DNA of 64,000 bases from an uncultured Poribacteria bacterium (GCA_951813565.1 OX638351.1:5152001-5216000), one strand, 5' to 3'. Shown: positions 27,329 to 61,162, counted from the stretch's first letter. The notes: a model not told the origin generated them from the sequence alone. Program-made: numbers and translations.

Positions 27329-27491
27329 AGGACTTACGCAATTTTCTCGACTTTGCGGTAATTATGGCAAAATGGTGTAATTTTTAGCAAAATTCTGAAT
27401 TATCAGCACGTTTACAAAACGCCAAATCAAGAAATCAACGGTATGAACGCCATTTAGGCATTCCCCGCCTACCACTTGTGTGTAAGTCCTG
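27329..27491. mobile_element. MITE-like element
   Basis: Terminal inverted repeats CAGGACTTACGCA / TGTGTAAGTCCTG (12/13 match); no convincing coding capacity. Confidence 0.65.
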
Positions 27492-40361: not shown

Positions 40362-40547
40362 TATAGTAGATTTTGGAATTACTTGGGCACTCAGCGCTAG
40401 CGAGGTTAGTAAACCTCCAAATCAACGGTATGAATGCGCGTATGGCATTCACCACCTACTGGTGAATGTAAGAGGCGCAATAAATTGCGCGACTACAAAC
40501 GTCGCAAATGCCAAGAAAATGTTAACTTATTTTTATAATTCACTATA
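40362..40547. mobile_element. MITE-like element (TATAGT family) carrying REP palindromes and a CCAAATCAACG mini-insert
   Basis: TATAGTAGATT ... AATTCACTATA ends; lies between the promoter and start of the larA-like gene. Confidence 0.55.
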
Positions 40548-40619: not shown

Positions 40620-40847
40620 GAAAAATCAACGCTGCACACAGAGTTATTAGTTTTAAGAATTATCAGTTACTGAGTGTTACTTAAAGTTTATATCGTCCGT
40701 CGGGTAGAGCTTGCGAAACCTATAAATCAACGGTCTGAATGCCTGTTGGCATTCCCCGGCATGTGCCTACTACTTTGCATCGCACATCTTTTTTCTAAGT
40801 TGAGACTATGGATAGAGTGATAGCGAAACCCACCTATGATACTATTA

Positions 40848-41172
40848 TAACGTGAGTTTGATAAAAGAATTCAATTTTGAATGTTGTGTTTCGTTTACGT
40901 TCATCTTGGCACCAAAATCAGAACAAGTGCCTTTGTTCCGTGAATCAACGCCAAATGCGCGTTTGGCATTTGGCGGGTGCGGTATGTCCGCTGAAGCCAC
41001 ATAGCACTCCTACGGAGCGCAAGAACTTGAAAACCTAACTTCTATAAACATAGCACGCCGCTGGCGTGCTGCAACATATTCGGCATCAAATTTGGATAGC
41101 CATGATATCGTGTTGGATTCCTCTAAATCATTAAGTCAAACTTACGTTAATATTATTATCAAACTCACGTTA
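40848..41172. mobile_element. MITE with perfect terminal inverted repeats
   Basis: TAACGTGAGTTTGATAA / TTATCAAACTCACGTTA; TTA on both flanks (possible target-site duplication); contains REP-like hairpins. Confidence 0.75.
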
Positions 41173-44240: not shown

Positions 44241-44393
44241 CAGCATGCCACACGGGGAATGCCATAAGGCATTCGGACCCGCTGAATGACTAAAGACGAA
44301 TGCGCTTGGTAGAATACGCTTTTGGTATTCTACATGATTCGCCATGATTCATACCGTTGATTTCTTGATTTGGCGCATGCTGCGTTGATTTGG
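44241..44393 (-). mobile_element. 153-bp nested CCAAATCAACG mini-element interrupting a REP palindrome
   Basis: Flanks rejoin to the intact REP seen at 31907 and 40471; inverted homologue of the same length at 60039-60191. Confidence 0.75.
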
Positions 44394-49624: not shown

Positions 49625-49696
49625 GATAGTTTTCGCTCCTTTATGTTTGAGTATTATACCATTTCTAATATATAATGTGTCATTTTCTGGAATATC

Positions 49697-49742
49697 CTGT
49701 AGGAGCGACCTCCTGGTCGCGACCGGGAGGTCGCTCCTACAG
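49697..49742. repeat. GTAG-type REP palindrome; related half-sites at ~32911-32939, 37546-37573, 49829-49854, 55943-55965
   Basis: ctgtaggagcgacctcctggtcgcgaccgggaggtcgctcctacag, near-perfect inverted repeat. Confidence 0.8.
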
Positions 49743-49918
49743 AAGAAAGGTATCTTCAGCAGACAATAACAGTTGAATTTCTTAATGAAATAGTATTTAT
49801 TAGAATTGGTATCTTAAAATTTTAGTCCAGTCGGGAATCGGAATTCCCTCCTACCGTAGAATCAACTCAGTATCACGACCTATAACACAAAATGGTTGCT
49901 TTTGTCATTTCATAATCC

Positions 49919-51817
49919 TTAATTTCCGAACGCATTTGCGACAATCACTAAATCTTGTATATTCACAACGCCATCACCATTCACGTCTACCCTCGGATTG
50001 CTGGGCTTTTCTATGCCGATATGTTGTGCCACCATTACCAGATCCAGCACATTGATGATGCCATCAACGTTGACATCGGCTAGGACCTCCATACCTACTA
50101 TATCTATGTTCCACGTCTGTTCCCAACTCTGCCCTTCTCGGACACTTTTCAGGAATCCTTGTGTTTTAACCATGAGTGGATCCCTCAACATCCAACGCGC
50201 GCGGATCCGAATGGTTGGTAAGACACCCCATACTATATAAGCCTCTTGAAATGCTTGGTAGCGTTCAGGTTCTCCATCTGGGTTTGGCACATGAAAACCG
50301 TAGGGGATCGTCCAAGGTGAAAAGAGAAAAGAACTGATGGGATGTGGCTGTTTGTTCCGATAAATTCCCTGTTGCGCTAAGTTCGTATTGAAGAATGTGC
50401 CTTCATGAATACCTTCGCCACCGAGCACAATCCCCGGCATCGCCTCCCTTAATTCCTGATGCATCAGGATGTTTCCTTCTGGAAAGGTTAATCCGTCTAC
50501 AAGCCCATTGGGATCATTTCTAAAAAGTGTATTGATATCCAAGTGGAATCCGTCTATCGGATAGGCTTCGTACACTTTTTTATGTTGCGTAACGGTATAT
50601 TTTCTAAATGCTTTTGACGCTGGATTGATATAAGCCACAGAGTCCGGGTATGACGGATCATCCCATCTGTAGCCGAGTTTGTGTCCTCTGAATGGATGTC
50701 GAAGGTGAAACTTCTCAAACTCTGGATAGAGTGGATCCTCCGGTGACATCACGACAACATTTGTATAAGGCATAACCCGAAACCCATAGGCATGTGCCAT
50801 CTTGAGAAAATCACCAAATTCGGGTCTGGGTGTAGGGAAATTCGCCTTCTCTGCCCTTTGCCAACCGAGTAGATATATCAAGGTCGTTGACGGATTTACA
50901 TGTTCTACTAATTTCGGTAAAATATCCATCTGCAAATTCAGGTAAACAACCAATTCAAGTTCTTTGACCCATACGGGGGGTTGCTTGGGTTGGAAAGCAG
51001 TTTCCATCCAGTCTCGATAAATCCGTGCGGGCACTTGCCAGTCGCCTCGGTAGGCGTTCAAACGCCACTCAACCGATGTAACCTCATTCTTATCTCGGAA
51101 GGGTGCGAAATTGTCTGTCCGAAAACTGATGCCAAAATGTTCGGCAGTTGGATTATAACCGACACCTTTGAACCGAAATGTTGTATCCGTGCTCCGCACA
51201 AAGAACCCGCCATCTCCACCTTGTAGTATGGCGAGTTGTGCCGCCCATCCCTCTGGATACTCAAAACCCCTATGATCGGTATCAGTGGCGGCATCAATGA
51301 TTTCACCACCACTGGCAGGTAATATGATATCCATTTTCTGGCTATTGAGGTATCCGCATCCCCACATAATGCTTACAACACGTTCTGAGGTGCCGTGCTG
51401 TCGAATAACGAGTTCCCCTGTATCGGCATCTATACTGATGCGGATCCGAACCGTTTTATCTACTCTATAATCAGAATAATACGCAACTTCTACACTCAGA
51501 GGGGTCAACCTTTTCGATTCTACTACTTCCCAATGATCATCTATGAGGATATACTTTCCATATTCTCCTTCGTTATATTGTATTGAGATACCACTTTGCT
51601 CATTTGAATCGCCTTGCTGTGGGAGTGTATAAGTCTCCTGTGTGAGTTTGTTGTGGAAGTGCACCAGCACGCCATGTTCAAAGCGCACCTGATACCGATC
51701 CGTCTCCGCGAGGACATTTCCCGCTTCATCAACCGTCAAAGTGTTTGACAACGCAGCAGGTATTAAAACAAACTGTAACAGCAAGATACAAGCACATTTA
51801 ATCCAGAAATCTCTCAC
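49919..51817 (-). CDS. Secreted glycoside-hydrolase-like protein with C-terminal dockerin-like domain
   Basis: Signal peptide; AHAYGFRVMP, DGFHLD, GGEG; twin DVN.DG..N..DLV.VA repeats; AGGAGG RBS. Confidence 0.65.
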   Translation of the reverse strand: MRDFWIKCACILLLQFVLIPAALSNTLTVDEAGNVLAETDRYQVRFEHGVLVHFHNKLTQETYTLPQQGDSNEQSGISIQYNEGEYGKYILIDDHWEVVESKRLTPLSVEVAYYSDYRVDKTVRIRISIDADTGELVIRQHGTSERVVSIMWGCGYLNSQKMDIILPASGGEIIDAATDTDHRGFEYPEGWAAQLAILQGGDGGFFVRSTDTTFRFKGVGYNPTAEHFGISFRTDNFAPFRDKNEVTSVEWRLNAYRGDWQVPARIYRDWMETAFQPKQPPVWVKELELVVYLNLQMDILPKLVEHVNPSTTLIYLLGWQRAEKANFPTPRPEFGDFLKMAHAYGFRVMPYTNVVVMSPEDPLYPEFEKFHLRHPFRGHKLGYRWDDPSYPDSVAYINPASKAFRKYTVTQHKKVYEAYPIDGFHLDINTLFRNDPNGLVDGLTFPEGNILMHQELREAMPGIVLGGEGIHEGTFFNTNLAQQGIYRNKQPHPISSFLFSPWTIPYGFHVPNPDGEPERYQAFQEAYIVWGVLPTIRIRARWMLRDPLMVKTQGFLKSVREGQSWEQTWNIDIVGMEVLADVNVDGIINVLDLVMVAQHIGIEKPSNPRVDVNGDGVVNIQDLVIVANAFGN

Positions 51818-52146
51818 AAATTTACCTCCTTACGTTTTCTCCAGCTTTTATTCCGATAAACAATTCTAAATTGATTTATGTTACTTCGTGTTTCCTATAA
51901 GATTTTAAACACAGAGTGCCATTTTTAATAGAGAACAGTTCGTTATTGGTGAAATATTGTAGCGCAAACTTTCAATTTGCGTCGTTTTATGCACAAACTA
52001 AATGAAGATTAATTTATTTATTCGGTAATTTTATGCCATGCACGAGGCAGTTGTGCCTCCTGCTGGCAAGGTTTCCTAACCTTGCCACATTACCGATTTA
52101 TTTTCTTAATCTTCATACAGTTTGTGCTACTATGTGGCAACTTAGG

Positions 52147-52890
52147 TTATTTCAGTTGAAGAATCGCCTGTTGTGCCTGATTGAGTTGATTCATTATGTT
52201 TGGACTAAAATGCAATCCTTGACCGCCCCAATCCGGCATATAACCGATGCTATAGCAGTAGTAAAGCGTTCTACGCGGTTTTCCTGAGACATTGATGACA
52301 GAACCATGCGTGAGTGCCTCTGTGAAGATGATAGCGTCACCTGCCTTAGCAGGAATCGGTGCCAACACAGGATTTTCATCGGGATGGCTACCCCACGGCT
52401 TCGGAAAATTGCTCTTATGCGCACCAGGGATTACTGCAAAACATCCGTCCTCAACATCGCAGTCAATCATTGGGAAAACGGCTTTTGTCAATGTGGAAAC
52501 CATTTCTCCATTTTTACAATGATACTGACACTTAGGAATAATCGGTGTTCCGTGCATGTGTAAACCGGTATAACCACCACCCCAACGATAAATCGTGTAG
52601 GTATGATTGAGACGATATGGCCCACCAGTCACCCCTTCAACCACGTCCAACACCTCTGGAATATCAACGAGGGCATTAAATACGTTATCTGCCTCCAATA
52701 TGTTGGAGATATAGAGTTCTTTCTCCGTTTTTTCTGTGCCGAGACATAACGGCTCTGGATAATCGCTGGGATTCATATTTTCATACGAATCAAGCACAGC
52801 ATTACATGATTCGATCACTGTCTGAGGAATAACATCTTTCAAAACGATGAAGCCTTGTAAATCAAATAAATACTTTTGTTCACCTGTCAT
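52147..52890 (-). CDS. PhyH-family dioxygenase lacking the HxD acid (LHMHG)
   Basis: KYLFDLQGF, LHMHGT, PGAHKSNF, KAGDAIIFTEALTHG. Confidence 0.82.
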   Translation of the reverse strand: MTGEQKYLFDLQGFIVLKDVIPQTVIESCNAVLDSYENMNPSDYPEPLCLGTEKTEKELYISNILEADNVFNALVDIPEVLDVVEGVTGGPYRLNHTYTIYRWGGGYTGLHMHGTPIIPKCQYHCKNGEMVSTLTKAVFPMIDCDVEDGCFAVIPGAHKSNFPKPWGSHPDENPVLAPIPAKAGDAIIFTEALTHGSVINVSGKPRRTLYYCYSIGYMPDWGGQGLHFSPNIMNQLNQAQQAILQLK

Positions 52891-57003: not shown

Positions 57004-57097
57004 TGGCGGGAGAGGGTGGGAGTCGAACCCACCTATCCACTTGCATGGACAAGCCGGTTTTGAAGACCGGTAGGGCCACCGGACCCTATCCTCCCCC
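57004..57097 (-). tRNA. selC: tRNA-Sec (anticodon UCA)
   Basis: 8-bp acceptor stem GGGGGAGG/CCTCTCCC, anticodon loop CTTCAAA, long variable arm, GTTCGACTC, encoded G-CCA end; next to selB. Confidence 0.93.
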
Positions 57098-57202: not shown

Positions 57203-59137
57203 CTAATTTTGTCTTGATGACAATCTGCGGACGTTACCATCTCGAATTGTGACATTTTGCGTGTCACAGTACTCCAAGAACGGCACTGCATATTTACGTG
57301 AAGTTTGCGCCAATTCCCGAAACTCCCCAACCGTTATTGTCCCATTTTCTCGGAGATAATTGGTTAATAATTCTTTTATTTCTTCAAACACCTCTCTGTG
57401 GATAAAGAAATTATCGGCTGCTTTGATAAATTGCCCAAGGTTTAATAAAGCGAAAAACGTTGATTCAATCACTTGGGGGGTATACTCTGGAAATAGCGTT
57501 TTCAGTTCATTAAGTCCAGGAGAATTGATTCCCACATCCAAAAATAATTTTTCAAGTGTTTCTTTAGCAGTTGACTCTTCTGCAGAGAATTGAATTTCAT
57601 GTGAAGCTAACCGTATTAGATTTCCATCCTTAACTAATTGCTTCGTTTTAATCAGTTCATTCGTAAGTTTTTCAAAACCTATCTCATCAAGTTCAAGTTC
57701 ACGGCTTAATTGCGATGCATTCTGCCCAGCGAGAAGCGGTTCTTTTTTGTGAAATTCTGACAACACTGTTAAAAGTTTCTCTGTAAATTCTGCAGTACGC
57801 GCAGCATCTGAAACAAGAGGCGTTTTACCCGATGTATCCCATCTTACAATTTTTTTTTCGGATGCCAAGGTTTCTAAAATGTTTCCGACTTCTGCTTGTG
57901 AATACGGCATATAATAATAGAGAAATGATTCGGCAACACATAGTGAAGGACTATTTTCTAAAACGGCATTTACAACTTGTGTGTCGTCCGCTTCTTCCCA
58001 CTGTGCTAAGGTTGTAATAGTTTCTTGTGTAAACCGCTTGTGCTTTGGTGCAAATGGGTTGATTACTTCACCACCACCAACAGTATGTTGTGCGGAAAAA
58101 TCTCGCAAAATGATGCGATCACCTCTAAATGTTAAAATCGGCTGCTCTAAGCGGAGTTGGACTTGGACTCTGTCCCCAGGTAGAATTGCTTCGTCAACTA
58201 ATAAAATCAATCGACAAAATATCTCACGCGTCCCAAGGTACGCACGAAAACGTCCCCAATGTTCAAGCATCCTTGGAAATGAGGATAAAACCTGCAACGA
58301 CACATCAATATTATCAGTAACACGTGAGAAGTTAATCGGACATAACACATCGCCACGTTGAATATCATGGACAGTAGTACCGGATAGGTTAAGCGCAGTT
58401 CTTTGTCCAGCTTGCGCAACATCAGCATGTTCGTTATGCACCTGTATACCTCGCACCCGTACCACATCATCTTGTGGTAGGATAACCATCCGCTGATCCC
58501 GATTTACTGAACCACCTATGAGCGTTCCTGTAACTACTACGCCAAAACCTTGAACAGTAAAAACACGGTCAACATACAACCGCGGAATGCCATCATGTTC
58601 TTGTGCTTTCGTTGCCAGATCAACCTGTTCAACGATCATCTGCTTTAAGGTGTCAATCCCTTCACCGGTTATAGATGAAACACTAACGGAAGGAATTCCC
58701 TCAAGCGATGTGCCAACTAACATTTCCTGTGTCATTTCTGTTGCTTCAGTTAGTTCTTCACGGGTTGCCAAATCTGACTTCGTCATCACAAGTATGCCAT
58801 TTGAGATTCCAAGCAGATCTAAAATTGCTAAGTGTTCAAGCGTCTGTTCCTGAACACCTTCCTTGGCATCAACAACAAAAAGCACAATATCCATCCCATA
58901 AGCACCGGACAGCATGTTCCGGATGAATTTCTCATGTCCAGGCACATCAACAATCCCTGCGCGTGAATTATCGGGAAGGTCAAAATAAGCAAAACCTAAC
59001 TCAATAGATAAGCCGCGCTCCCGTTCTTCTTTGAGTCGGTCTGTCTCAATGCCTGTGAGTGTGCCAACCAGGGCGGTTTTTCCGTGGTCCACATGCCCTG
59101 CTGTCCCGATGATAAGGTGTCGTCTATCTTGATGCAT
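57203..59137 (-). CDS. selB: Selenocysteine-specific elongation factor
   Basis: GTAGHVDHGKT, TDRLKEERERGLSIELGF, DVPGHE, C-terminal TSRKYAVPFLEY. Confidence 0.95.
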   Translation of the reverse strand: MHQDRRHLIIGTAGHVDHGKTALVGTLTGIETDRLKEERERGLSIELGFAYFDLPDNSRAGIVDVPGHEKFIRNMLSGAYGMDIVLFVVDAKEGVQEQTLEHLAILDLLGISNGILVMTKSDLATREELTEATEMTQEMLVGTSLEGIPSVSVSSITGEGIDTLKQMIVEQVDLATKAQEHDGIPRLYVDRVFTVQGFGVVVTGTLIGGSVNRDQRMVILPQDDVVRVRGIQVHNEHADVAQAGQRTALNLSGTTVHDIQRGDVLCPINFSRVTDNIDVSLQVLSSFPRMLEHWGRFRAYLGTREIFCRLILLVDEAILPGDRVQVQLRLEQPILTFRGDRIILRDFSAQHTVGGGEVINPFAPKHKRFTQETITTLAQWEEADDTQVVNAVLENSPSLCVAESFLYYYMPYSQAEVGNILETLASEKKIVRWDTSGKTPLVSDAARTAEFTEKLLTVLSEFHKKEPLLAGQNASQLSRELELDEIGFEKLTNELIKTKQLVKDGNLIRLASHEIQFSAEESTAKETLEKLFLDVGINSPGLNELKTLFPEYTPQVIESTFFALLNLGQFIKAADNFFIHREVFEEIKELLTNYLRENGTITVGEFRELAQTSRKYAVPFLEYCDTQNVTIRDGNVRRLSSRQN

Positions 59138-59916
59138 CAGTTGAGTCCATGTTGTGAGTGGATTAGTTTTCCGATTCGATTGAACCGTATATTACCAATA
59201 AGTTTCCACACCTCCCATATCTTCGCGGGGCGATCCTTAAAGGACCAGTATACCATGAAGGCTTGTCCCTTAATATCATCAACATCAACAGGTCCCCACG
59301 TGCGGCTGTCACTACTCTGATCACGGTTATCTCCCATCGCAAAAACCTTGCCTTTTGGAACAGTAAACGGTTTGCCATCAGGAAATTCCCGTTTAAATTG
59401 GTTGTCTGTCAGGATAAAATCATCGTAAATTTCATTATCTTCCATGTATTTCTCTGGCTGGCGGAAAGGAGGGAAGTCACCACGTCTAATAAAACGACCC
59501 CCTACGTGCTTAGTGTAACTGCTTTCTTCAACAGCTTTACCGTTAACATATAGCGTTTTGCCCTCTGTGTGAACCGTATCGCCTTCAGCGGCTACAATAC
59601 GCTTAATGAAATTCCGATCAGTTTCGTGTGGTGGAATAAAAACAAAAACGTCTCCTCGGGCAGGCTTATGAAAATCGAAGACTCTCATATCTGTTCCAGG
59701 AATTTTAAACCCGTAAATAAACTTGCATACCAGAATCCGGTCTCCAATAAGAAGTGTATCTTCCATTGAACCGGATGGGATTTTAAATGCTTCCACAACA
59801 AAGGGACGTATAAACCCAAAAACAAGAATAAGTGCAACTACAATAACTTGGGTATATTCCCAGACGACCGTTTTCCGAAATTTCTGCCATTTTGATAATT
59901 GGATATCAGTACTCAT
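59137..59916 (-). CDS. lepB: Signal peptidase I
   Basis: IPSGSMEDTL..GD, FIKRI, MGDNRDQSSDSR. Confidence 0.93.
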   Translation of the reverse strand: MSTDIQLSKWQKFRKTVVWEYTQVIVVALILVFGFIRPFVVEAFKIPSGSMEDTLLIGDRILVCKFIYGFKIPGTDMRVFDFHKPARGDVFVFIPPHETDRNFIKRIVAAEGDTVHTEGKTLYVNGKAVEESSYTKHVGGRFIRRGDFPPFRQPEKYMEDNEIYDDFILTDNQFKREFPDGKPFTVPKGKVFAMGDNRDQSSDSRTWGPVDVDDIKGQAFMVYWSFKDRPAKIWEVWKLIGNIRFNRIGKLIHSQHGLN

Positions 59917-60038
59917 GATGTTTGAACCGCCGTAATAAGACGGTATCCCTTTCTTACTTTTACGACTTGTGTTAGTTAACTATTTGTTTGTATTCTTTTC
60001 ACACATATTGAACTCATGTTATACACATATCGTCCCTA

Positions 60039-60191
60039 CCAAATCAACGCCAAATGCGCCAAATCAAGAAATCAACGGTATGAATCATGGCGAATCATGT
60101 AGAATACCAAAAGCGTATTCTACCAAGCGCATTCGTCTTTAGTCATTCACCGGGTATGAATGCCTTTTGGCATTCCCCGTATGGCATTTGT
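60039..60191 (+). mobile_element. 153-bp nested CCAAATCAACG mini-element in a gtccc-tac-gggac palindrome; simple 34-bp version at 60243-60276
   Basis: Direct comparison of the two adjacent copies and of the inverted copy at 44241-44393. Confidence 0.75.
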
Positions 60192-60397
60192 CGGGACTAA
60201 AGATAGGGTGTTCAACGTTTTTCTATAAACATATCGTCCCTACCAAATCAACGTCAAATGCGCTTATGGCATTTGTCGGGACTGAAGAAGGAATCAACTA
60301 ATGATAAAAACTAACAAAACGTCATGCAATTGTGAGACAATATTTTACAAATAGTTATTTAGCACAACTCGTTACTTTTAGATGATTTTTCATTTTT

Positions 60398-61162
60398 TTA
60401 ACGGATGAGTTTGCCTATGCGATTCAAACGGATATTACCTACTATTTTCCATATCTCCCACATTTTTGCAGGTCGGTTGCGAGTTGACCACATAACCATA
60501 AAAGCTTGTCCTTTAATATCGTCTACATCCACAGGTCCCCATGTGCGGCTATCACTACTTTGGTCACGGTTGTCTCCCATAGCAAAGACCATGTTCTTTG
60601 GAATAGTAAACGGTTTACCTTCTGGAAATTTATGTCTGAACTGACTTTCTGTCAAGGTGAAATCGCTGTATGTTTCATCTTGAGAAAGATATTCAGAACT
60701 ACGGAACGGTGGAAAATCCTTCCGAAAATGACTATAAGGTAAGTGTTTCGTATAACTTTGTTCGTCAACCCGCTGACCATTAACATACAGTCTCTCGCCT
60801 TCAGTAAAGACTCTATCTCCTGCAACGGCAACAATACGTTTGATGAAATGGAGATTTCTCTCATGTGGTGGGATGAAAACAAAAACATCTCCACGGGCAG
60901 GTTCATGAAAATCAAAAACCTTGATATCTGTGCCTGGAATTTTAAACCCATACATAAACTTACAAACTAAAATCCGATCGCCTACGAGTAGTGTATCTTC
61001 CATAGAGCCAGATGGAATTAGATAGGCATCTACTATAAATGGACGAAAGAATCCAAAAACAAAAATAAGCGTAAATATAATGCCTTTTAATTGTTGAAAT
61101 CTGGACAATCTGGACTTGGTTGGCTGATTATGATTTTGTGTATTGCGATCCATAATTGACAT
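60398..61162 (-). CDS. lepB: Signal peptidase I, second paralog
   Basis: Same Ser/Lys catalytic motifs. Confidence 0.93.
   Translation of the reverse strand: MSIMDRNTQNHNQPTKSRLSRFQQLKGIIFTLIFVFGFFRPFIVDAYLIPSGSMEDTLLVGDRILVCKFMYGFKIPGTDIKVFDFHEPARGDVFVFIPPHERNLHFIKRIVAVAGDRVFTEGERLYVNGQRVDEQSYTKHLPYSHFRKDFPPFRSSEYLSQDETYSDFTLTESQFRHKFPEGKPFTIPKNMVFAMGDNRDQSSDSRTWGPVDVDDIKGQAFMVMWSTRNRPAKMWEIWKIVGNIRLNRIGKLIR

What the first reader, a model, noticed from the sequence alone, without database searches (positions are those of the whole stretch)
60025..60285. Nested ~34-bp mini-elements (CCAAATCAACG + hairpin) that insert before CG, including into each other
Seen: two adjacent atatcgtcccta|cgggact palindromes each carry an insert at the same position. 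The second has a simple 34-bp unit, ccaaatcaacg-tcaaatgc-gcttatg-gcatttgt (60243-60276). The first has the same unit (60039-60191) with another ccaaatcaa...ggcattccc unit (60059-60177) in its hairpin loop. That unit appears to be split at its own CAA|CG by a third (g)aaatcaacggtatgaa...cattcac unit, which holds further hairpins. Related units lie at 27422-27465, 40417-40452, ~40722-40756, ~40941-40973 and 44241-44393. Nearly all are followed by CG, with no TIRs and no consistent target duplication. Inference: an ultra-short, site-selective non-autonomous element, or an enzymatic insertion scar, that parasitises REP hairpins and itself. I do not recognise it as a described family. Lack of TIR/TSD plus a hairpin would fit an HUH/Y1 (IS200/IS605, RAYT) type enzyme acting in trans, but none is encoded here.
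Basis: partly seen in the sequence, partly recalled or inferred. Interest (0 to 1): 0.85.

Follow-up and report, generated by a model that had tools for sequence, protein, structure and literature searches.

The report
Nested 34-base hairpin repeats inside a MITE
This stretch holds real copies of a tiny (34-35 base) tag-plus-hairpin DNA repeat that slots precisely into other hairpins and into its own copies in sponge-symbiont Poribacteria, but here the whole nest arrived ready-made inside a larger 411-base mobile element, and the enzyme that moves the tiny units is still unknown.

Summary
Two copies of the palindrome ACATATCGTCCCTA|CGGGACT each carry an insert at the same point: a 34-nt unit (60243-60276) and a 153-nt composite (60039-60191) with a 119-nt block (60059-60177) in its hairpin loop. 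Removing each in silico gives sequences that exist elsewhere in the genome.

The claimed third level, a clean split at CAA|CG, has no empty counterpart.

The family is real. CCAAATCAACG occurs 519 times in this genome, is enriched in 36 of 36 same-genus genomes and is near background in 24 genomes of sister families. Units are followed by CG in 164 of 260 sites that have a paralogous empty site, and by another unit in 75. Targets are hairpins.

New here: the whole block 59962-60372 is a 411-bp MITE with terminal inverted repeats and a 7-bp target duplication. It is absent from the orthologous site in five relatives. The 153-nt and 119-nt composites occur 42 and 63 times, so the nest was not built at this spot.

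No enzyme could be tied to the units. RAYT and IS200/IS605 genes exist in the genome, but the evidence linking them is weak.

The scan reported this family before, in other windows of this genome and in other Poribacteria genomes.

The parts
59955..59961 (+). Left copy of the 7-bp target-site duplication TACTTTT of the carrier MITE
   Evidence: the same 7 bases follow the element at 60373-60379. Relatives have this stretch once at the orthologous spot.
59962..60372 (+). Carrier MITE, 411 bp. Imperfect terminal inverted repeats of about 25 bp: ACGACTTGTGTTAGTTAACTATTTGT at the left, and the reverse complement of the right end reads ACGAGTTGTGCTAAATAACTATTTGT. No ORF of 60 aa or more lies within it.
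   Evidence: 7 long copies at 80-97.6% identity; 19 left and 18 right ends; 12 complete copies listed, 10 with identical 7-bp flanking repeats; absent between the two signal-peptidase genes in G029, G002, G006, G061 and G012. ORF list.
60373..60379 (+). Right copy of the target-site duplication TACTTTT
60025..60038 (+). Left half of host palindrome 1 (ACATATCGTCCCTA). The right half, CGGGACT, is at 60192-60198.
   Evidence: GTCCCTACGGGAC (the empty form) occurs 21 times in the genome, and TCGTCCCTACCAAATCAAC (the filled form) 25 times.
60039..60191 (+). 153-nt composite. An outer 34-nt unit (tag CCAAATCAACG, stem CCAAATGC/GCATTTGT) is split by the 119-nt block in its loop.
   Evidence: excision restores the empty palindrome (found 4 times); 42 near-full copies, with outer stems that differ by paired changes; folds as nested hairpins, z -3.48, 0 of 200 shuffles fold as well.
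60059..60177 (+). Inner 119-nt composite. It begins with a doubled tag, CCAAATCAAGAAATCAACG, and ends with the hairpin GGGTATGAATGCC-TTTT-GGCATTCCC. It sits at G|CG of the outer loop.
   Evidence: excision gives GCG|CGTATGG (found 4 times); 63 near-full copies (lengths 95, 119, 120, 129, 130), 61 followed by CG, 30 immediate contexts.
60077..60152 (+). 76-nt segment inside the inner composite, holding two further small hairpins. It is flanked by the 9-nt direct repeat GGTATGAAT (60077-60085 and 60153-60161), so its start is ambiguous over 60077-60086.
   Evidence: 76-nt excisions, up to 44 matches. (paralog series: versions without it, with a 36-nt form, and with 24-25-nt additions).
60229..60242 (+). 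Left half of host palindrome 2. The right half, CGGGACT, is at 60277-60283.
60243..60276 (+). Simple 34-nt unit CCAAATCAACG-TCAAATGC-GCTTATG-GCATTTGT
   Evidence: excision gives the empty palindrome (found 2 times); hairpin fold, z -2.13, 7 of 200 shuffles fold as well.
27422..27465 (+). Doubled-tag unit with a single hairpin (44 nt), inserted before CG inside the 3' arm of a GTAG-type REP
40417..40452 (+). Unit with a bulged hairpin, inside the REP GCGAGGTTAGTAAACCT|C(A)CCTAC. This is the REP family that flanks one RAYT gene.
40722..40756 (+). Unit with a degenerate start (AT instead of CC), followed by CG
40940..40973 (+). 34-nt unit of the GTGAATCAACG subtype, followed by CGGG
44241..44393 (-). 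Second copy in the window of the 153-nt composite, with a different outer stem (CAGCATGC/GCATGCTG), inside another multi-copy repeat
   Evidence: 94.6% identity over 149 nt.

Best explanation
The 34-35-nt units belong to a Poribacteria-restricted family of very small, non-autonomous mobile DNA. Each unit has a fixed 5' tag (CCAAATCAACG) followed by a 7-9-bp hairpin.

Shown:
- Units are discrete blocks with exact ends and no target duplication.
- They sit immediately 5' of a CG (equivalently, inside a C^G step). That CG lies in the loop or at the foot of another hairpin: a REP, a palindrome inside a MITE, or the loop of another unit.
- Repeated use of the CG left at the 3' junction gives head-to-tail arrays. 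Use of the CG in a unit's loop gives nests.
- Whatever lies between the tag and the terminal hairpin travels with them, so composites of 119 and 153 nt spread as single elements.
- At this locus nothing was built in place. The nested composite and the simple unit are passengers in a 411-bp MITE that inserted between two signal-peptidase genes with a 7-bp duplication.

Inferred, about 0.3:
- The units move as single-stranded DNA through an HUH-type tyrosine enzyme acting in trans (a RAYT or an IS200/IS605 TnpA).
- One half of the dimer would hold the unit's hairpin and the other half the target hairpin, which would explain why targets are hairpins.
For: Boundaries:
- Of 2358 AATCAAC sites, virtual excision gives a sequence present elsewhere most often for a start at C or CC of the tag with length 34 or 35 (144, 134, 123 and 106 sites), against 31-49 at the off-register starts +1 and +2.

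Junctions:
- The 3' flank is CG at 164 of 260 sites, the next unit at 75, GG at 20 and TG at 1.
- In other Poribacteria genomes, 110 of 120 units are followed by CG. For the 119-nt composite the figure is 61 of 63.

Targets:
- 35 of 37 distinct empty sites lie in or against a perfect hairpin of 5 bp or more, against 746 of 3000 random intergenic CG positions. In the loop: 16 of 37 against 291 of 3000.

Structure:
- Stems vary by paired changes. Pair 2 is A-T 88 times and G-C 84 times; pair 3 is A-T 84, C-G 58 and T-A 37 times.
- Folds.

Mobility:
- 13 to 519 tags per genome in 37 of 37 genus genomes, against 4-12 in 24 genomes of three sister families, with controls at 0-11.
- Only 10 of 519 tags lie in long ORFs, which cover 74% of the genome.
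- A 100% identical 153-nt composite sits in an unrelated REP host at 4774652-4774804.
- One MITE backbone occurs with the palindrome empty, +34, +35 more, and so on.

Carrier MITE.

For the HUH idea:
- No inverted-repeat ends and no target duplication.
- On the other strand a unit reads as a hairpin plus an 11-nt tail.
- 10 Y1_Tnp matches over the cut-off in this genome. One RAYT scores 116 bits against a cut-off of 80 in NF047646.
- Genomes with a strong RAYT match carry more tags: median 101 against 46.5, Mann-Whitney p 0.0025. This is uncorrected for kinship and assembly quality.
Against: Against independent mobility at this locus:
- Both inserts here came with the MITE. Many other copies also ride in larger repeats. 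For example, 10 of the 63 inner composites share one wider context.

Against an HUH enzyme:
- 5 of 36 genus genomes have no Y1_Tnp match at E <= 1e-5, yet carry 33-104 tags. These are G001 (4 contigs, 97% complete, 102 tags), G023 (1 contig, 104 tags), G010, G024 and G030.
- RAYT relatives are present in sister families that lack the units: g3 4 of 4, g5 8 of 8, g6 4 of 4.
- All 6 RAYT loci read in relatives, and the 3 in this genome, are flanked by GTAG-type REPs and not by the units.
- The ends of the IS605-type copies do not resemble the units.
- No gene flanked by units looks like a transposase.

Other gaps:
- No orthologous filled-versus-empty pair was found for a single 34-nt unit. At 13-30% divergence the intergenic regions are too rearranged.
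- GC skew is too weak to test a replication-strand bias. Orientation is 342 against 307.
- The deeper layers (76, 36 and 24-25 nt) are not clean tag-plus-hairpin insertions.
Confidence: 0.7

Rival explanations
1. The units are not mobile by themselves. They are modules of REP/BIME-like mosaic repeats that spread only by riding in MITEs and other larger repeats, and by recombination, gene conversion or slippage between similar hairpins.
For: - At this locus the units are passengers of a MITE.
- The 76-nt segment is flanked by a 9-nt direct repeat, as unequal recombination between two similar hairpin arms would leave.
- Many composite copies share wide flanks.
- MITE forms with one or two palindromes could arise by recombination between the two palindromes.
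Against: - The same unit types occur with exact boundaries in 37 distinct empty-site contexts, and the 119-nt composite in 30 immediate contexts.
- Arrays mix different unit subtypes, which simple tandem duplication would not give.
- Excision in register beats out-of-register excision about 3 to 4 fold.
- A 153-nt copy that is 100% identical ends exactly at the unit's 5' boundary in an unrelated host.
Confidence: 0.15
2. The units are mobile, but they are moved by something other than a Y1 HUH transposase. Candidates are an unrecognised nuclease or recombinase that acts on hairpin loops at CG, or a host repair or replication process.
For: - Five genus genomes have 33-104 tags and no Y1_Tnp match.
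- RAYTs keep their own GTAG REPs.
- No IS end resembles the units.
- The palindromic 2-bp target CG is unlike the 4-5-nt one-sided targets of IS200/IS605 (recalled knowledge).
- For the cyanobacterial small dispersed repeats, cutting at a palindromic site was also proposed without a transposase (passage in PMC4390886).
Against: - No candidate gene was found. There are 115 multi-copy ORF families of 200 aa or more; I checked the 25 largest for nearby tags and only one stood out, a TnpB-only element whose 'tag' is an internal motif.
- The 7 unit-flanked ORFs scanned are housekeeping genes.
- Units in Y1-free genomes may be relics.
Confidence: 0.35
3. The tag-plus-hairpin is a selected functional motif, such as a terminator, a protein-binding site or an RNA element, kept by selection and not by mobility.
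For: - Stems are kept by paired changes.
- Tags lie almost entirely outside long ORFs: 10 of 519 inside.
- The tag holds an ATCAA core like the first half of the IHF consensus (recalled; the second half does not fit).
Against: - No Rfam family is matched in the window apart from tRNA-Sec.
- Units sit inside one another and inside other repeats, which breaks the host hairpins.
- Copy number varies 40-fold among species of one genus.
- Orientation shows no overall bias.
Confidence: 0.05

Closest known systems
Small dispersed repeats (SDR1-8) of Nostoc punctiforme and relatives (Elhai et al. 2008, Genome Res 18:1484). The paper is not held. I saw only mentions of it in PMC3116915 and PMC4390886; the rest is recalled.
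   Same: - Very small dispersed repeats with near-identical copies.
- Precise insertion into palindromic sequence. SDR5 inserts between the 3rd and 4th base of GCGATCGC (passage).
- Copies found inside other copies (recalled).
- No known enzyme.
   Different: - 34-35 nt instead of 21-27 nt (recalled).
- A fixed 5' tag plus the unit's own hairpin.
- The target is a CG in or at a hairpin.
- The host phylum is Poribacteria, not cyanobacteria.
- Composites of 119-153 nt propagate as units.
- Sequence relatedness could not be tested.
REP / BIME / REPIN elements with RAYT (TnpA-REP) transposases (Bertels and Rainey 2011, PMC3116915, abstract and passages; Di Nocera et al. 2013, PMC3733652, passages)
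   Same: - A 20-40-nt extragenic hairpin with a conserved tag at one end, in high copy and in arrays.
- Some REP families sit inside target palindromes (PMC3733652 passage).
- A RAYT is present in the genome.
- A poor match between the presence of tyrosine transposases and of repeats is also reported there.
   Different: - The tag is CCAAATCAACG, not GTAG or CGTC.
- The RAYT genes here are flanked by GTAG REPs, not by the units.
- Units are single and head-to-tail, not inverted doublets.
- The units use the GTAG REPs as landing sites.
IS200/IS605 family (IS608 model) and its palindrome-associated miniature derivatives (recalled knowledge)
   Same: - No inverted-repeat ends and no target duplication.
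- Hairpin-dependent ends.
- On the bottom strand a unit reads as target CG, then hairpin, then an 11-nt tail. This resembles a right end whose cut lies about 10 nt beyond the hairpin.
   Different: - Only one hairpin instead of one at each end.
- A 2-bp palindromic target.
- The ends of the IS605-type copies in this genome are unrelated.
- Five genus genomes have units but no Y1 gene.
Bacterial MITEs (for the carrier element only)
   Same: 411 bp, about 25-bp imperfect inverted-repeat ends, a 7-bp target duplication, no coding capacity, multi-copy, and an empty orthologous site.
   Different: - No autonomous partner was found in this genome. None of the 14 end pairs is longer than 409 bp.
- Copy length varies from 204 to 411 bp, largely because of which micro-units each copy carries.

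Membership tests
REP / REPIN-RAYT system | Short extragenic palindromic hairpin, 20-40 nt, in high copy | tested here: met
   519 exact tags. 180 sites fit a 34-nt hairpin geometry with at least 7 of 8 pairs (34 of these are an internal part of the composite), and 123 fit the 35-nt geometry. 10 of 519 tags lie in long ORFs.
REP / REPIN-RAYT system | GTAG or CGTC tetranucleotide tag at one end (PMC3733652) | tested here: not met
   The conserved end is CCAAATCAACG (GTGAATCAACG in a subtype). GTAG REPs are a separate family in the same genome.
REP / REPIN-RAYT system | The cognate RAYT gene is flanked by the repeat | tested here: not met
   3 RAYT loci in this genome and 6 in relatives are flanked by GTAG REPs. 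A unit lies about 100-170 nt upstream of 2 of the 3 in this genome, but not at the relatives' loci.
REP / REPIN-RAYT system | Co-occurrence of the repeat family and a RAYT across genomes | tested here: inconclusive
   Tags are found in 36 of 36 genus genomes and a RAYT match in 26 of 36. RAYTs are also present in sister families without tags. Tag counts are higher with a strong RAYT match, p 0.0025, uncorrected.
REP / REPIN-RAYT system | Inverted doublet (REPIN) as the replicating unit | tested here: not met
   Units are single or in head-to-tail rows: 75 of 260 are followed by another unit in the same orientation.
Small dispersed repeats (SDR, Elhai 2008) | Unit of 21-27 nt in heterocyst-forming cyanobacteria (recalled definition) | tested here: not met
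   Units are 34-35 nt. The host is Poribacteria: 78 of the 80 rows shown are titled Candidatus Poribacteria.
Small dispersed repeats (SDR, Elhai 2008) | Precise insertion into palindromic sequence and into other copies, without duplication | tested here: met
Small dispersed repeats (SDR, Elhai 2008) | Sequence similarity to SDR1-8 | not testable with these tools
   The paper and its sequences are not held.
IS200/IS605-derived miniature element | No inverted-repeat ends and no target duplication | tested here: met
IS200/IS605-derived miniature element | Ends match those of an autonomous IS200/IS605 copy in the genome | tested here: not met
   The IS605-type copies have left ends with a CCCC...GGGG hairpin, and in the TnpB-only family the right end finishes ...GTATGTCAA. 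Neither resembles the units.
IS200/IS605-derived miniature element | A Y1 HUH transposase is available in every genome where the element is active | tested here: inconclusive
   There are 10 matches in this genome. There are none in 5 of 36 genus genomes that carry 33-104 tags. Whether the units are active in those genomes is unknown.
MITE (carrier, 59962-60372) | Terminal inverted repeats, target-site duplication and no coding capacity | tested here: met
   10 of the 12 listed complete copies have identical 7-bp flanks.
MITE (carrier, 59962-60372) | Empty orthologous site | tested here: met
   G029, G002, G006, G061 and G012 have 20-40 bp between the two signal-peptidase genes, with the target stretch present once.
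MITE (carrier, 59962-60372) | An autonomous partner with the same ends | tested here: not met
   The 14 end pairs are 204-409 bp long, none over 700 bp. Other genomes were not searched.

The most novel reading that the evidence does not exclude
A hairpin-to-hairpin single-strand DNA transposition system whose whole substrate is a 10-11-nt tag plus one terminal hairpin. It would carry more than 100 nt of cargo between the two, choose its targets by their hairpin shape and a CG, and be driven in trans either by a RAYT/IS200-type enzyme used outside its usual REP specificity or by an enzyme class not yet recognised. That would make it the smallest cargo-carrying transposon known.
Probability: 0.25. 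Interest if true: 0.8.

Novelty: new variant of a known kind. Interest (0 to 1): 0.58.

Why it matters
- How DNA of only a few dozen bases can move has been open since the cyanobacterial small dispersed repeats were described.
- This family gives a second, independent case in another phylum, with unusually clean anatomy. It has a fixed tag, a hairpin kept by paired changes, an exact CG junction and hairpin targets. It also has a MITE family whose copies preserve a graded series from empty to five-fold nested.
- The observation that composites of 119 and 153 nt spread as units suggests that only the tag and the terminal hairpin are recognised. That is a testable minimal-substrate hypothesis.
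- In practice these units inflate and scramble intergenic DNA. They also break short-read assemblies: contigs of three public runs stop about 30 bases inside the MITE on each side.

Tried and rejected
1. **Strain-level empty sites in public runs.** In X1, X4 and X9 (three studies) contigs run to 59991 and resume at 60345. The MITE ends are joined to the flanks there, but the interior is not bridged. X10 has no cover past 58746. The joints inside 60084-60146 come at depths far above the local one, so they stem from other copies. No polymorphism could be read.

2. **Orthologous filled or empty single units.** Intergenic regions of G029, G036 and G006 are too rearranged. A simple unit in the same REP family in G029 proved not to be orthologous to the composite at 4774652.

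3. **Replication-strand bias.** Cumulative GC skew has no clear turning points. Orientation is 342 against 307.

4. **Units inside genes.** The top candidates from ORF restoration were chance CAAATCAAC words without hairpins.

5. **An autonomous partner.**
   - The three IS605-type copies with a tag at a fixed distance carry it inside tnpB.
   - A TnpB-only family has tags near 5 of 5 copies, but the 'tag' is an internal AT-rich motif.
   - 8 ORFs are flanked by tags on both sides. The 7 that I scanned are housekeeping or restriction genes; the eighth, a 3641-aa ORF, was not scanned.

6. **Y2_Tnp (IS91).** No match in this genome, but the control rang in no genome, so this says nothing.

7. 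**CRISPR- or integron-like recording.** Rejected, because the units are a few conserved sequences and not unique spacers or cassettes. The hairpin does not include the tag.

8. **The palindrome motif alone.** At up to 1 mismatch it is not enriched in the window: 3 matches against 2.64 expected. Its reality rests on the genome-wide copies.

Full report
**The locus**

The stretch lies in the 481-bp spacer between two paralogous signal-peptidase genes. These are 59137-59916 and 60398-61162, both on the minus strand and both Peptidase_S26. LepA and SelB are their neighbours.

The sequence shows ACATATCGTCCCTA...CGGGACT twice, exact at 60029 and 60233. Each copy is interrupted after CCCTA.

**Check of the observation**

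I removed every possible segment of 12-174 nt in 60020-60295 in silico. I then asked whether the joined 11+11 bases exist elsewhere in the genome.

| Segment removed | Length | What remains | Found elsewhere |
|---|---|---|---|
| 60243-60276 | 34 nt, ±1 | the uninterrupted palindrome | 2 times |
| 60039-60191 | 153 nt | the uninterrupted palindrome | 4 times |
| 60059-60177 | 119 nt | a plain unit loop, GCG\|CGTATGG | 4 times |

The third level is different. The only supported excision is a 76-nt segment whose start is ambiguous over 60077-60086. It is flanked by the 9-nt direct repeat GGTATGAAT. No excision corresponding to a split at CAA|CG has an empty counterpart. The tag-tag junction reads CAAGAAATC and not CAACCAAATC, and one extra G follows the inner hairpin.

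An equally good reading puts a unit at the 5' foot of a CGGGTATGAATGCC...CCCCG hairpin. Such hairpins follow units elsewhere. I leave this layer unresolved.

Single-strand folds give the nested hairpins:
- The composite has z -3.48, and 0 of 200 shuffles fold as well.
- The simple case has z -2.13, and 7 of 200 shuffles fold as well.

**The family**

The genome is a single 5.43-Mb contig with 43% G+C.

- AAATCAACG occurs 9 times in the window against 1.02 expected and 817 times in the genome. CCAAATCAACG occurs 519 times.
- Over all 2358 AATCAAC sites, virtual excision finds a paralogous empty site most often when the block starts at the C or CC of the tag and is 34 or 35 nt long. The counts are 144, 134, 123 and 106 sites, against 31-49 at the off-register starts +1 and +2.
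- Of the 260 sites with an empty counterpart, the 3' flank is CG in 164, the start of another unit in 75, GG in 20 (a GTG-start subtype with 36-nt blocks) and TG in 1.
- In 115 stretches from other genomes, 110 of 120 hairpin-forming units are followed by CG.
- Stems differ between subfamilies by paired changes.
- Only 10 of 519 tags lie in ORFs of 200 aa or more, which cover 74% of the genome.
- Of 37 distinct empty target contexts (arrays left out), 35 have the insertion point in or against a perfect hairpin of 5 bp or more, against 746 of 3000 random intergenic CG positions. These 37 are not fully independent, because several are variants of one host family.

**Distribution**

The tag is enriched in G000 and in all 36 other genomes of the genus that were searched. 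Counts run from 13 to 519, against 0-8 for the reversed control word. It is near background in 24 genomes of three sister families, at 4-12 against 1-11.

Of the 80 rows shown, 78 are titled Candidatus Poribacteria.

BLAST of the spacer shows that 59959-60380 is one copy of a longer repeat. The best match is 97.6% identical, at 700248-700669.

Orthologous spacers in G029, G002, G006, G061 and G012 are 20-40 bp long and lack the whole block.

The element is 59962-60372, 411 bp. It has imperfect inverted ends of about 25 bp and the 7-bp duplication TACTTTT. Of 12 complete copies listed, 10 have identical 7-bp flanks. No copy longer than 409 bp between paired ends was found. It is therefore a MITE.

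Its copies carry the first palindrome in a graded series:
- empty (5142587);
- with one 34-nt unit (2404268);
- with a 35-nt unit added in that unit's loop (2818451, 260137);
- with three further states up to the one seen here.

The states follow MITE similarity, so the nest grew in a MITE lineage and was then copied.

**Composites move as units**

The 153-nt composite has 42 near-full copies. The inner part is conserved, while the outer stem changes type: CCAAATGC/GCATTTGG, CAGCATGC/GCATGCTG, CTGAATAC/GTATTCAT.

The 119-nt inner block has 63 near-full copies in 30 immediate contexts. These include the loops of at least eight stem types and the loops of unrelated REPs, and 61 of the 63 are followed by CG.

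One 153-nt copy is 100% identical to this one but sits in a different REP, and the similarity starts exactly at the unit's first base.

The simplest reading is that only the 5' tag and the 3' terminal hairpin matter for propagation.

**The enzyme**

The window has no HUH gene, but the genome has 10 Y1_Tnp matches over the cut-off. These are IS605-type tnpA-tnpB copies, an IS200-like gene, and three RAYT-like genes. One RAYT scores 116 bits against a cut-off of 80 in NF047646.

None could be tied to the units:
- RAYTs here and in six relatives' loci are flanked by GTAG REPs.
- IS ends are unrelated to the units.
- 5 of 36 genus genomes carry 33-104 tags without any Y1_Tnp match. Two of them are in 1 and 4 contigs.
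- RAYT relatives occur in sister families without units.

In favour, genomes with a strong RAYT match carry more tags: median 101 against 46.5, p 0.0025. This is not corrected for kinship or assembly quality. It may simply reflect more REP targets.

No unit-flanked or multi-copy gene looked like a dedicated enzyme.

**Mechanism**

Shown:
- exact blocks without duplication;
- a CG junction;
- hairpin targets;
- arrays and nests consistent with re-use of the CG at the 3' junction and in the loop.

Inferred:
- Transfer as single-stranded DNA by an HUH-type enzyme. One hairpin site would hold the unit and the other the target hairpin. I put this at about 0.3.
- An unrecognised enzyme or process is at least as likely.

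**Comparison with known systems**

The kind is known. The cyanobacterial small dispersed repeats are one case. That paper is not held, so I rely on mentions and on recall. REP/BIME elements are the other, and some REP families sit inside target palindromes (PMC3733652 passages).

This family fails the defining tags and the RAYT-flank test for REPs. It also fails the size and host of the SDRs.

My searches found no paper on such repeats in Poribacteria. These searches cover open-access text only.

**Earlier notes of this scan**

The same family was reported in at least eight other windows of this genome and in other Poribacteria genomes, each time without an enzyme. I re-derived independently the boundaries, the CG rule, the genus restriction and the 'copied as ready-made blocks' point.

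New here:
- the MITE carrier, with its target duplication and empty orthologous site;
- the hairpin-target statistic;
- the Y1-free genomes;
- the RAYT count comparison.

Noticed in passing
window 57008-57097 (-) and 57203-59137 (-): A tRNA-Sec gene (Rfam RF01852, 78 bits) lies next to a SelB elongation-factor gene, so this organism has selenocysteine machinery. The spacer between them is about 20 bp in G036 and G006, about 110 bp here and longer still in G029, where it holds a unit.
   Followed up: partly
genome C1:242044-242490 and about 350 bp downstream (outside the window): The second RAYT-like gene is followed by about seven tandem copies of a ~49-nt GTAG-type REP module (GTCGCGAGCTGGAG...CTACAAG...).
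   Followed up: no
genome C1:159945-161102 and 4 other copies; a 31-copy family starting at 107245: There is a TnpB-only IS605-type element in 5 copies whose right end finishes GTATGTCAA. A much larger tnpB-like ORF family has 31 copies. Both are independent of the micro-units.
   Followed up: partly
G009 (relative), many places on C1: This relative has 20 Y1_Tnp matches. Many are split by the same TAG stop, which looks like a burst of one broken IS200-type copy. Yet it has the fewest tags in the genus (13).
   Followed up: no
window about 49640-52147: Synteny with G029 and G006 breaks over this stretch. Public-run contigs show very high summed depth and many joints here, so another repeat-rich or mobile insert probably lies between conserved genes.
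   Followed up: no
genome C1:1861327-1864377: A Type ISP restriction-modification gene (Type_ISP_C, 326 bits) has micro-unit tags within 250 bp on both sides. This is probably chance, since its neighbours are REP-rich spacers.
   Followed up: partly
genome C1:3098010-3098354 and 71 copies of AGCCCCAGCGGGGC: An IS200-like Y1 gene is flanked by its own REP family (TTAGCCCCAGCGGGGCGAAAGGTGTAT). That REP is also a landing site for the micro-units, including the 100% identical 153-nt composite at 4774652-4774804.
   Followed up: partly
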